From: Escherichia coli | Lineage (GTDB): Bacteria; Pseudomonadota; Gammaproteobacteria; Enterobacterales; Enterobacteriaceae | NCBI RefSeq assembly: GCF_003991155.1 | Contig: NZ_CP031293.1 | Length of the DNA: 64,000 bases | Direction: 5' to 3' (one strand) | Part shown: positions 45,101 through 48,100 of the stretch, piece by piece | Layout: the number at the start of each line of letters is the position of its first letter | Numbering within the stretch: position 1 is the stretch's first letter | Position numbers: made by a program

Positions 45101-48100
45101 CGATTTCCTTTATTGCTTTAGTCGCGCCGCACATTGCCCGACGCATTAGCGGCACCGCTCGCTGGGGGCTGACCCAGGCGGCGCTGTGCGGGGCGTTGTT
45201 ACTGCTGGCGGCCGATCTCTGCGCCCAACAACTGTTTATGCCGTATCAACTTCCGGTTGGCGTCGTTACCGTCAGCCTCGGCGGTATTTACCTTATCGTC
45301 TTGTTAATTCAGGAGTCTCGCAAAAAATGACCGAATCAGTAGCCCGTTTGCGCGGCGAACAGTTAACCCTCGGATATGGCAAATATACCGTTGCGGAGAA
45401 TCTGACTGTAGAAATACCTGATGGTCACTTCACGGCAATTATCGGGCCAAATGGCTGCGGTAAATCCACTTTACTGCGTACTTTAAGCCGCCTGATGACG
45501 CCTGCTCACGGGCATGTCTGGCTGGATGGTGAGCACATTCAACATTACGCCAGTAAAGAGGTTGCACGCCGGATTGGTCTGTTGGCGCAAAATGCTACCA
45601 CGCCGGGCGATATCACCGTGCAGGAGCTGGTGGCGCGTGGACGTTACCCGCATCAACCGCTGTTTACCCGCTGGCGCAAAGAGGATGAAGACGCGGTAAC
45701 GAAAGCGATGCAGGCCACGGGAATCACTCATCTGGCAGATCAAAGCGTGGATACCCTTTCTGGCGGACAACGCCAGCGAGCGTGGATAGCAATGGTGCTG
45801 GCCCAGGAAACGGCAATTATGCTGCTCGATGAACCCACGACCTGGCTGGATATCAGTCATCAGATTGATTTGCTGGAACTGTTAAGCGAACTGAACCGCG
45901 AGAAAGGCTATACCCTGGCGGCGGTGCTGCACGATCTTAATCAGGCCTGTCGTTACGCCAGCCATTTGATTGCATTGCGGGAAGGGAAAATTGTTGCTCA
46001 GGGAGCGCCGAAGGAGATTGTCACTGCTGAATTGATCGAGCGCATTTATGGTCTGCGCTGCATGATTATTGACGATCCGGTAGCCGGAACTCCGCTCGTG
46101 GTGCCGCTCGGACGAACGGCACCTTCAACTGCCAAGATTTAAACTAAGTGCTCTTCCATCACGGCATCCTGTTTTCTGGATGCCATGGCATGGCGCAACA
46201 GCACGCCACCACAAGCCACCATACCGCCGATCAACGCAGAAAGGATCACGATAATCGCCTTACCCGGACCGTCTTTTTTTACGGGTAATGACGGACGCAA
46301 CTGATATTTAAACGGCGTAAAATTCACATCGTTGACATTTGCTTTTGTTAGCTGCTCAACAAGATACTGACGATTACGTAATTCACCGTTCAGTTCCGCA
46401 ACGTCAGTAACCGCTTTTTCAATTTCCAGTTTGCGTTCAATACCGTCTGCGCCGAGAGAAATAGAGAAATCGGGGTCATCTTTAACGGCCTGACCATTAC
46501 TGTAAACGGGCTTTTTAATTCCTGCCGCGTTGGCAATGTCGAGTGAATAATTGAGGCGCTGAATGTTTGCATCAAGTTGATTTTTCGTTTTAATGCGATC
46601 CTGAGCCAGTTTTTCTTTTTCAAACTGGGTTTTGATCTCCAGTTTATTACGGACGTTTTCTATCGACTCTTTCACCACCAACGCAGAGATATAATCGATA
46701 TACCCGCTCAAAACGGTCTGCGCCTCTTCACTGGTTGGCGCGGTAAAACTTAGCGTCCAGGAGGTATACAGTGACGGTTCATCTTTTTTCTTACTGGCAT
46801 TGTCATCAACCGCTTTCATTTTTTCGCTCAATGCGACGATAGCGCGATGCAAATCCAGTTCGTCGATTTTCGCCTCTTTTAATTGGTCCATCACATAAGG
46901 TGATGAGCGCAGGTACTCTTCCAGTAAGCTAATAGACTGAAACTTCTTGATAAATAGATTAAATACTCCATTACGATCGAGATTAACATCAAGATCCAGA
47001 ACGCGCAGTTTAGTAAAGTTTTTCTCCAGGTCCTGCCACTGAATAGCCTCTGCGGGAGTAATGACGGCGGAGCTGGTCCATTTTTGCGGCAGGATGAAAG
47101 AGATCAGCAATCCTGTGCAGGCAAACGCAAAAACGACCGCCATGACCGTTTTTTTTGCCCGCCATAAAACGTCGATTAGATTAAGTAAATCAATTTCATT
47201 ATTACTGGGCGACGCCAGAGGATACTCGGGAAAATGAGCGTCACTTCCCTGTTTAATATTCAGTGATGACATGCGGTATAACCTGAAATGGGTCCAATAA
47301 GAGTAAATCTCCACGGCCCCCACTTTACCAGTTGGTGAGATTTATCCGAAGCTGAAGTTTGTAAATTCCTCCCACTGAATGCAACATTCACTCTATTTCA
47401 GAGAAATATCCGTTAAATTGATAAATTAAATAAATAATAAACCCATAATCATTTATTGTAATTATGGGTTTATAGATAATATAAATTTACTTATTTAGCG
47501 TCGCACGAATAATCGGCCCTATTTTTTCAAACGCCATCGGCGAGATAATATCCACATGCGCACAATCCTGACGATAGATATCCAGCTCCGTAATCCACGG
47601 CGACCAGGCGCGTTCGGGATTCATACCTTCCTGAAGCGTGCGTTCAGCAACAAACAGCGTCGCTTTACCTTCAAACGGTACGCTATGAGCAGTCGTCAGC
47701 AGGCGCACAGCATCAGCGTAGTTGCCTTCAATGGTGGTAAACAACTCCGTTGAAGTACTTCCCTGCTGTGCCGCCAGGAAGGCCTCGCGCTCGCGGTTAA
47801 TCTCCGCCAGCACTTCCGGGTCCAGGCCATTAGCCTCTTTTTCCTGCCAGTTTTGCGTTTCTGGCGGCCAGGTATCCAGCAAGCCAAGAAATGCCACCTG
47901 TTCGCCACGGGCACGCAGCCGCGCCGCAATACCCTGCGCCAGCGTACCGCCCAGCGAATAACCCAGCAGGTAATAAGGGCCGTGCGGTTGATGCTCAAGT
48001 AACGTTGCCAGATGCGCTTCGCAGACTTCATCCAGATTTGCCGCGGTCTGCATGGGGCCATTGGGGCGCGGCGACTGAATGCCGATAATCGACCATTGTG

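What the first reader, a model, noticed from the sequence alone, without database searches (positions are those of the whole stretch)
47439..47471. Perfect 11-bp AT-rich inverted repeat between entF and fepE
AAACCCATAAT-(11 nt)-ATTATGGGTTT lies 16 bp downstream of the entF stop and upstream of fepE. It could be a weak terminator or attenuator separating entF from fepE transcription, or a protein-binding palindrome. The stem is AT-rich, so a classical intrinsic terminator is not certain.
Basis: seen in the sequence. Interest (0 to 1): 0.15.

Follow-up and report, generated by a model that had tools for sequence, protein, structure and literature searches.

The report
Intrinsic terminator after entF, before fepE
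The inverted repeat is real and is most likely an ordinary, evolutionarily conserved transcription terminator hairpin that ends the iron-regulated entF message before the separately controlled O-antigen length gene fepE.

Summary
It extends to a 13-bp perfect palindrome (47437-47473). On the minus strand, which is the entF/fepE sense strand, the RNA forms a 15-bp stem with a 7-nt loop (-15.4 kcal/mol, z = -4.7), followed by UUUAUUAUUUAUUU. It is not chance: 0.2 such repeats are expected per 64 kb.

It is single-copy and present in every sampled E. coli allele of an otherwise hypervariable spacer. The same hairpin follows entF in other Escherichia, Salmonella, Citrobacter and Intestinirhabdus wherever this fepE lineage sits next to entF.

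Pairing is maintained by compensatory changes (8 of 15 pairs; 0/500 shuffles). There are many G·U pairs on the sense strand and no A·C within the stem, so the constraint acts on sense-strand RNA, not on a DNA palindrome. A T-rich tract always follows (78% T versus 35% background).

Published K-12 RNA-seq shows fepE RNA at about 1-6% of entF in a fur deletion. In Salmonella, fepE has its own mapped promoter about 110 nt downstream.

Verdict: a strong but slightly leaky intrinsic terminator, an undescribed member of a canonical class. No 3'-end mapping was found. Low interest.

The parts
47487..47489 (-). entF stop codon (TAA)
   Evidence: ORF 47487..51506 on the minus strand. The identical record annotates entF ending here.
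47469..47473 (-). A-rich stretch (AUAAA) forming the 5' base of the extended stem; it pairs with the first U residues of the tail
   Evidence: The 8 nt upstream of the first G:C pair average 51% A in 14 taxa.
47437..47473 (-). Terminator hairpin. 5' arm 47473-47459, loop 47458-47452 (CAAUAAA), 3' arm 47451-47437. It has 15 pairs; the three G:C pairs (CCC 47468-47466 / GGG 47444-47442) sit next to the U-tract.
   Evidence: Fold: -15.4 kcal/mol, z = -4.74, 0/200 shuffles. It is kept in the MFE and centroid structures in 226-nt and 143-nt contexts. Terminator scan hit. Covariation.
47428..47441 (-). U-rich tract UUUAUUAUUUAUUU directly 3' of the GGG. The expected RNA 3' ends are about 47436-47430 (inferred).
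   Evidence: The 8 nt after the last G:C pair are 78% T in 14 taxa, against 35% in the rest of the spacer.
47405..47417 (-). Context: position homologous to the H-NS DNase I footprint (TTTGCTGGTTATT) reported in the EHEC EDL933 fepE promoter region. Here it reads TTTAACGGATATT.
   Evidence: PMC8669466, placed through alignment A1. By homology only.
47336..47349 (-). Context: RcsB-box-like sequence TCGGATAAATCTCA overlapping the -35 (TTCGGA, 47350-47345) of the fepE promoter
   Evidence: It matches TN(G/A)GAN4TC(T/C)NA. The homologous Salmonella box TCGGATAATTCTGA lies at -36 to -22 from the SalCom fepE TSS and binds RcsB (PMC7913699). The block is invariant across genera.
47322..47330 (-). Context: extended -10 of the fepE promoter (TGgTAAAGT). 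The inferred TSS is about 47313; the fepE ATG is at 47272-47270.
   Evidence: Conserved TGnTA(A/G)A(A/C/G)T block 17 nt after TTCGGA in alignment A4. TSS position inferred from Salmonella.

Best explanation
The repeat encodes the hairpin of an intrinsic (Rho-independent) terminator for the Fur-controlled fes-ybdZ-entF transcript.

Proposed mechanism. RNA polymerase leaves entF on the window's minus strand. Thirteen nt after the stop codon the nascent RNA folds into a 15-bp stem. The three G:C pairs sit at the stem base, directly before a U-rich tract, and most transcripts are released there.

Consequences. A few percent of transcripts read through, and this leak probably accounts for the residual Fur dependence of fepE. 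fepE is otherwise transcribed from its own promoter about 110 nt further downstream. That promoter has an RcsB box with a -35 and an extended -10, and the spacer is H-NS-bound.

Status of each step. Shown here: the structure, its covariation, its strand polarity and the conserved U-tract. Shown in the literature for relatives: the drop in RNA level (E. coli K-12) and the fepE promoter (Salmonella, EHEC). Inferred: that release happens at this hairpin and without Rho.
For: (1) Structure. The sense-strand hairpin folds at -15.4 kcal/mol, z = -4.74. It is retained with flanking sequence and is flagged by the terminator scan on the minus strand only.

(2) Conservation within E. coli. The spacer is unusually divergent: only 136 of 5400 genomes are >=99% identical and 2621 are 80-90% identical. 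Yet all 17 sampled alleles keep the hairpin.

(3) Conservation across genera. The same hairpin lies 13-39 nt after the entF stop in Escherichia spp., E. albertii, Salmonella diarizonae and arizonae, about 14 Citrobacter species and Intestinirhabdus.

(4) Covariation. 93.3% of cells are paired against 81.4% in shuffles. Eight of 15 pairs change on both sides, 0/500 shuffles reach this, and slid controls give 35-52%. One position shows C-G, U-A, A-U, G-C and U.G.

(5) Strand polarity. There are 0 A.C pairs, and one more U.G occurs in E. coli AVS0662. Pairing is therefore selected in sense-strand RNA.

(6) U-tract. The 8 nt after the last G:C pair are 78% T, against 35% in the rest of the spacer.

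(7) In vivo transcript levels. In the fur deletion of MG1655, entF reads 927/877 and fepE 7.2/6.3. In W3110, entF reads 1354/1299 and fepE 21/25. The same study's Fur transcription units in W3110 and strain W list fes, ybdZ and entF without fepE (PMC10164565).

(8) Uncoupled regulation. fes, ybdZ and entF are induced without fepE in two other transcriptomes (PMC6049941, PMC4145685).

(9) An independent fepE promoter exists. Reporter fusions work in EHEC and K-12. Salmonella has a mapped TSS plus RcsB footprint on a block that is conserved here.
Against: No mapped RNA 3' end at this site was found. Four 3'-end or full-length transcript datasets whose supplements could be searched hold no entF or fepE entry; the genes are probably repressed in the media used.

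The stem has only 3 G:C pairs in 15. The window's U-tract is interrupted (UUUAUUAU). A rough d'Aubenton-Carafa-type score is below threshold for this allele (-11.5) although positive for K-12 (+13.6).

The RNA-seq drop could also reflect Rho-dependent termination in the untranslated spacer, or lower fepE mRNA stability. The expression data are from K-12, not from the window's allele.

Databases name a fes-ybdZ-entF-fepE unit, and fepE does rise 10- to 55-fold in the fur deletion, so termination is not complete.
Confidence: 0.8

Rival explanations
1. Transcription is ended by Rho somewhere in the untranslated, H-NS-bound spacer. The hairpin only stops 3'-to-5' exonucleases and so defines and stabilises the mature entF 3' end.
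For: The hairpin is conserved as RNA, which this model also needs. Trimming of Rho-terminated transcripts back to stem-loops is the subject of PMC6061677 (listed; not read in detail, so this is partly my own knowledge). The stem is AU-rich and the window's U-tract is imperfect.
Against: A T-rich tract directly after the G:C base is kept in every lineage (78% versus 35% T). A mere exonuclease block would not require that. The spacer sense strand is only 15% C, which is poor for Rho loading. This is inference; no rut analysis was done.
Confidence: 0.1
2. The palindrome is a double-stranded DNA operator for a dimeric regulator, such as Fur or a fepE regulator.
For: The repeat is perfect, and its inner half (CCATAAT/ATTATGG) is nearly invariant across genera. 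The loop region superficially resembles a Fur box (ATAATCATT). The spacer is known to bind H-NS and RcsB.
Against: The best Fur-box match is 11/19, and 93.5% of shuffles do as well. Stem positions switch to different base pairs while keeping complementarity. G.U occurs 23 times and A.C never within the stem, an asymmetry that duplex DNA cannot produce. The reported H-NS and RcsB sites lie 20-130 nt downstream, not on the repeat. The repeat is about 120 nt upstream of the inferred fepE TSS.
Confidence: 0.04
3. The hairpin is a leader element of a fepE transcript that starts upstream of or inside the repeat. A promoter-like ATTACA-17-TATTAT lies at 47462-47434.
For: The promoter scan lists this match.
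Against: The scan found 3 matches in the region against 1.9 +/- 1.5 expected. The hexamers are not conserved outside E. coli. The Salmonella TSS and the conserved -35 and extended -10 lie about 110 nt downstream. A transcript starting at this putative promoter would lack the 5' arm of the stem.
Confidence: 0.03
4. It is a chance repeat in AT-rich DNA, or an inert scar of the event that inserted fepE between entF and fepC.
For: The spacer is 33% G+C. The hairpin is found only in genomes where fepE follows entF.
Against: Probability about 0.002 for the spacer. Pairing is actively maintained by compensatory changes across genera. It is single-copy and not part of a repeat family.
Confidence: 0.03

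Closest known systems
Canonical intrinsic (Rho-independent) terminators of E. coli (hairpin plus U-tract, often with an upstream A-tract)
   Same: Stem-loop directly followed by a U-rich tract, G:C pairs at the stem base, an A-rich stretch upstream, and a position just after a stop codon on the coding strand. Total folding energy is in the usual range.
   Different: The stem is long (15 bp) and AU-rich (3 G:C pairs) and the loop is 7 nt. The window allele's U-tract is broken by two A residues. The rough discriminant score is near or below threshold for several alleles.
Leaky terminators inside nominal operons that set the ratio between upstream and downstream genes (for example the rplL-rpoB attenuator and the terminator between rpsU and dnaG; from my own knowledge)
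   Same: It sits between two co-oriented genes that databases list as one unit (fes-ybdZ-entF-fepE). It lets a small fraction through: fepE is about 1-6% of entF yet still rises 10- to 55-fold in the fur deletion.
   Different: Here the downstream gene is functionally unrelated (O-antigen chain length) and also has its own regulated promoter. No regulated antitermination is indicated, and no competing upstream structure was predicted.
3'-end stabilising stem-loops of Rho-terminated transcripts (PMC6061677)
   Same: A conserved RNA hairpin at the end of a long mRNA.
   Different: The conserved U-tract directly after the stem argues for release at the hairpin itself. This was not tested experimentally.

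Membership tests
Intrinsic (Rho-independent) terminator | Stable RNA stem-loop formed by the nascent transcript | tested here: met
   -15.4 kcal/mol, z = -4.74, 0/200 shuffles. It persists in longer contexts. Covariation supports it.
Intrinsic (Rho-independent) terminator | G+C-rich stem, especially at its base next to the U-tract | tested here: inconclusive
   Only 3 of 15 pairs are G:C, but they sit at the base, directly before the U-tract. The hairpin from CCC to GGG alone folds at -9.5 kcal/mol.
Intrinsic (Rho-independent) terminator | U-rich tract of about 7-9 nt immediately 3' of the stem | tested here: met
   Window: UUUAUUAU (6/8). K-12: UUUUUUAU (7/8). Mean 78% T in 14 taxa against a 35% background.
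Intrinsic (Rho-independent) terminator | Correct strand and position: downstream of a stop codon, in the direction of transcription | tested here: met
   It starts 13 nt after the entF stop on the minus strand. G.U-versus-A.C asymmetry shows sense-strand folding.
Intrinsic (Rho-independent) terminator | Transcript level falls across the element in vivo | tested here: met
   Published RNA-seq for K-12 only: in the fur deletion, fepE is 0.7-2.6% (MG1655) or 1.7-5.9% (W3110) of entF, depending on whether the tabulated values are length-normalised. This is indirect and not from the window's allele.
Intrinsic (Rho-independent) terminator | RNA 3' ends map in the U-tract; release occurs with RNA polymerase alone, without Rho | not testable with these tools
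   There were no entF or fepE entries in the searchable supplements of four 3'-end or full-length transcript studies. Two further papers hold no supplement text.
Fur box (Fur operator) | Good match to the 19-bp consensus GATAATGATAATCATTATC | tested here: not met
   Best match is 11/19, and 93.5% of shuffled spacers do as well. Elsewhere in the window the best matches score 15-16/19, at the positions expected for the fepD/entS and fepB/entC promoter regions.
Dispersed repeat families (REP/BIME, ERIC, MITE-like elements) | Many copies per genome | tested here: not met
   Median of one place per genome in 4890 E. coli genomes. Every sampled match lies at the 3' end of entF. There is one match in the window.
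Curated structured RNA families (Rfam 15) | Match to a covariance model at or near the gathering score | tested here: not met
   Only three far-sub-threshold hits elsewhere in 46000-49000, and none on the hairpin.
Palindromic DNA operator | Sequence-specific conservation that is symmetric on both strands, with no preference for RNA-type wobble pairs | tested here: not met
   Up to five pair types at one stem position. In stem positions p1-p13 there are 23 G.U and 0 A.C pairs.

The most novel reading that the evidence does not exclude
The terminator may work as a tunable valve. fepE's own promoter is very weak in K-12 (0.4-0.8 units), so the 1-6% read-through from the very strongly derepressed fes-ybdZ-entF transcript would dominate fepE RNA under iron limitation (10- to 55-fold rise in the fur deletion). 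The U-tract is polymorphic among E. coli lineages: UUUUUUAU in K-12 and B2-type alleles, UUUAUUAU here, UUUAUCAU in O157:H7, UUAAUCAU in others. Lineages may therefore differ in how strongly very-long O-antigen chain synthesis is coupled to iron starvation.
Probability: 0.25. Interest if true: 0.35.

Novelty: new member of a known kind. Interest (0 to 1): 0.12.

Why it matters
It clarifies how a much-used locus is organised. Databases list fes-ybdZ-entF-fepE as one unit. The sequence and published expression data fit better with a Fur-controlled fes-ybdZ-entF transcript that ends at a conserved terminator. fepE then follows with its own RcsB- and H-NS-controlled promoter plus a small iron-dependent leak from upstream.

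This is useful for annotation and for anyone engineering or interpreting fepE or enterobactin expression. It is not a new principle.

Tried and rejected
- **Fur box in the loop or arm (ATAATCATT...).** The match is at chance level.
- **Rfam search.** Nothing relevant was found.
- **Dispersed repeat or mobile-element end.** The element is single-copy.
- **Promoter-like ATTACA-17-TATTAT inside the hairpin.** The count is at chance level and the hexamers are not conserved.
- **Antiterminator or competing structure with the entF 3' end.** None was predicted; the hairpin stays in the MFE and centroid structures.
- **Direct 3'-end evidence.**
  - I searched the supplements of Adams 2021, TERMITe 2025, SMRT-Cappable-seq 2018 and TRS 2023 by gene name. 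For Adams 2021 and TRS 2023 I also searched by b-number and by the expected MG1655 coordinates.
  - There were no hits.
  - Dar & Sorek 2018 and Choe 2022 hold no supplement text.
- **Literature search for a described entF terminator.** Nothing relevant was found.
- **Full-length MAFFT alignment A2.** It misplaced one gap in the 3' arm, so pair counts were made on a re-trimmed alignment, A3.
- This was a mistaken call to a model that was never built, and it carries no information.

Full report
**Observation**

The window carries entF (47487-51506) and fepE, also annotated wzz(fepE) (46139-47272), both on the minus strand. The stretch is 100% identical to E. coli FDAARGOS_497, where these genes are annotated. 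The repeat AAACCCATAAT / 11 nt / ATTATGGGTTT is at 47439-47471, as reported.

The repeat extends to 13 perfect pairs (47437-47473). As minus-strand RNA it forms a 15-bp stem with a 7-nt loop. It lies 165 nt before the fepE ATG.

It is not a chance feature. About 0.21 such repeats are expected per 64 kb. Only 0.2% of randomised copies of the 214-nt, 33% G+C spacer contain one. The core pattern occurs once in the window and never in 100 shuffles.

**Structure**

The sense-strand RNA hairpin folds at -15.4 kcal/mol (z = -4.74). The antisense version is weaker, at -13.7 kcal/mol. The hairpin survives in the MFE and centroid structures when the whole spacer or 100 nt of the entF 3' end is included. 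No competing antiterminator-like structure appears.

On the sense strand the three G:C pairs sit at the stem base. They are preceded by AUAAA and followed by UUUAUUAUUUAUUU. The consensus terminator scan reports this site on the minus strand only. Rfam has nothing here.

**Conservation within E. coli**

The region is present in 5400 of 5426 complete genomes, as a single copy. The spacer itself is unusually divergent:
- only 136 genomes are >=99% identical to the window;
- 2632 genomes are 90-95% identical and 2621 are 80-90% identical;
- about 530 genomes align only within fepE.

Seventeen alleles sampled across that whole range all keep the hairpin. Several carry compensatory changes. B2-type alleles have AAAACC/GGTTTT. 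TUM12355 and related strains have TTAACCC/GGGTTAA. AVS0662 has a C-to-U change that gives U.G.

**Conservation across genera**

I fetched 80 loci containing entF 3' ends from species-representative genomes. I then examined the sequence after each stop codon.

The same hairpin, (A)AACCCATAAT...ATTATGGGTT plus a T-rich tail, is present in these taxa:
- two unnamed Escherichia species and E. albertii;
- Salmonella enterica subsp. diarizonae and arizonae;
- about 14 Citrobacter species;
- Intestinirhabdus alba.

In all of these, a fepE of this lineage follows entF directly. C. amalonaticus has what looks like a GC-richer homologue, CCGTAAC...GTTACGG plus T8.

Genomes without fepE (Klebsiella, Enterobacter, Kluyvera, Kosakonia and others) have unrelated GC-rich hairpins or REP-like sequences after entF. 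So do genomes with a distant fepE of about 57% identity. The element therefore belongs to the entF-fepE junction of one lineage.

**Covariation and strand polarity**

On a 24-sequence alignment trimmed to the hairpin (A3), the results were:
- 93.3% of cells form standard pairs, against 81.4% after shuffling;
- 8 of 15 pairs have changes on both sides;
- no shuffle out of 500 reaches any of the five measures;
- sliding the partner by 1-3 columns drops pairing to 35-52%.

One caveat applies: I set the register of this alignment from the hairpin itself.

The eleven core pairs hold 2 mismatches in 275 cells. One position shows C-G, U-A, A-U, G-C and U.G.

Non-Watson-Crick pairs are informative about strand. 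Pairs p1-p13 contain 23 G.U pairs on the sense strand, at seven or more positions or lineages, and no A.C pair. The only two A.C pairs sit at the loop edge. A duplex-DNA palindrome bound by a protein has no reason to show that asymmetry. An RNA stem transcribed in the entF-to-fepE direction does.

**U-tract**

In 14 taxa, the 8 nt after the last G:C pair are 78% T. The rest of the spacer on the same strand is 35% T. This supports release at the hairpin rather than a mere exonuclease block.

**Predicted strength**

I computed a rough d'Aubenton-Carafa-type score using modern folding energies, so it is indicative only. The scores are allele-dependent:

| Allele | Score |
|---|---|
| K-12 | +13.6 |
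| B1S11 (same tail type as O26:H11) | +20.3 |
| B2-type | +7 |
| Window | -11.5 |
| O157:H7 | -24 |

The differences come from A or C interruptions in the U-tract.

**Expression evidence from the literature**

The Fur pan-regulon study (PMC10164565) tabulates RNA-seq for wild type and a fur deletion (the column header was checked).

| Strain | Gene | Wild type | fur deletion |
|---|---|---|---|
| MG1655 | entF | 23/17 | 927/877 |
| MG1655 | fepE | 0.77/0.52 | 7.2/6.3 |
| W3110 | entF | 6.9/6.1 | 1354/1299 |
| W3110 | fepE | 0.61/0.40 | 21/25 |

fepE RNA is thus about 0.7-1.7% of entF if the values are length-normalised, and 2.6-5.9% if they are counts. Yet fepE still rises 10- to 55-fold when Fur is removed. 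The simplest reading is a terminator that stops more than 94-99% of transcripts, with the leak carrying the Fur signal.

Other observations point the same way:
- The same study's transcription units for W3110 and strain W list fes, ybdZ and entF without fepE.
- Two other transcriptomes show fes, ybdZ and entF induced while fepE is absent from the induced set or responds to a different stimulus (PMC6049941, PMC4145685).
- fepE promoter fusions are active and regulated by H-NS in EHEC and by SdiA in E. coli (PMC8669466, PMC11619404).
- In Salmonella SL1344, a mapped TSS lies 36 nt downstream of the start of an RcsB box, TCGGATAATTCTGA, which is footprinted by RcsB (PMC7913699).

That RcsB box is the most conserved block of the spacer after the hairpin. 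In the window it reads TCGGATAAATCTCA (47349-47336). It is followed 17 nt after TTCGGA by TGgTAAAGT (47330-47322). RcsB-box-like motifs sit 72-84 nt upstream of every fepE homologue examined, including those not next to entF.

The layout is therefore, in order:
1. entF stop codon
2. terminator hairpin
3. AT-rich, H-NS-bound spacer
4. RcsB box with -35 and extended -10
5. fepE

**Rivals**

- A Fur operator is rejected: the best match is 11/19, at chance level.
- A generic protein-binding palindrome is disfavoured by the covariation and the wobble asymmetry.
- A promoter inside the hairpin is a chance-level, non-conserved match.
- A dispersed repeat is excluded by copy number.
- Rho-dependent termination with the hairpin acting only as a protective 3' structure cannot be excluded without experiments. 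The conserved U-tract argues against it.

**What is missing**

I found no direct 3'-end mapping. I searched four datasets' supplements by gene name, and two of them also by b-number and by the expected MG1655 coordinates, without result. The ent genes are probably repressed in the media used. The expression data come from K-12, whose U-tract is better than the window's.

**Verdict**

This is a real, conserved and functionally sensible element of a textbook kind. I could not find it described in the papers searched, but it is not surprising. Interest is low. The only mildly novel angle is that lineage-specific U-tract variants might tune how much iron starvation leaks into O-antigen chain-length control.

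Noticed in passing
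window 47273-47486 and flanks (entF 3' end to fepE 5' end): The entF-fepE spacer and the start of fepE are unusually divergent for E. coli core DNA. Only 136 of 5400 genomes are >=99% identical to the window, 2621 are only 80-90% identical, and about 530 align only inside fepE. This suggests old, recombining allele classes at the fepE locus.
   Followed up: partly
window 47322-47350 (minus strand): A candidate fepE promoter is conserved across genera. It comprises an RcsB-box-like TCGGATAAATCTCA overlapping a -35 TTCGGA, then 17 nt, then an extended -10 TGgTAAAGT. It is homologous to the RcsB-footprinted box 36 nt upstream of the Salmonella fepE TSS. The simple promoter scan missed it.
   Followed up: partly
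window 46139-46142: fepE (minus strand) and fepC (plus strand) converge and overlap by 4 bp at their 3' ends, with no room for a terminator between them. Read-through from fepDGC would therefore run antisense through fepE towards the hairpin.
   Followed up: no
window 5118-5147, 19256-19283, 25077-25112, 60640-60672: These are the only other perfect inverted repeats of 11 bp or more with short loops in the window. The repeat at 5118-5147 (AAAAAACCCGCTT...AAGCGGGTTTTTT) looks like a classical bidirectional terminator.
   Followed up: no
window 43300-43324, 40857-40875, 40972-40990: The best Fur-box matches in the window (15-16 of 19) lie here. These are the positions expected for the fepD/entS and fepB/entC divergent promoter regions.
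   Followed up: no
L055 (Citrobacter sp. MGH106) about 2760-2850: This locus has a decayed copy of the hairpin (AAACTCATAAT...GTTATTAATTT, with two mismatches). It lies downstream of an extra, strong GC-rich hairpin (ACCCCAGTCACTTA...TAAGTGACTGGGGT, -24.5 kcal/mol) inserted after entF. The old terminator may have lost constraint once another structure preceded it.
   Followed up: no
L014, L016, L021 (Citrobacter amalonaticus group) about 2737-2775: The hairpin CCGTAAC...GTTACGG followed by T8 looks like a GC-richer homologue of CCATAAT...ATTATGG, with two further compensatory changes. It was not included in the covariation counts.
   Followed up: partly
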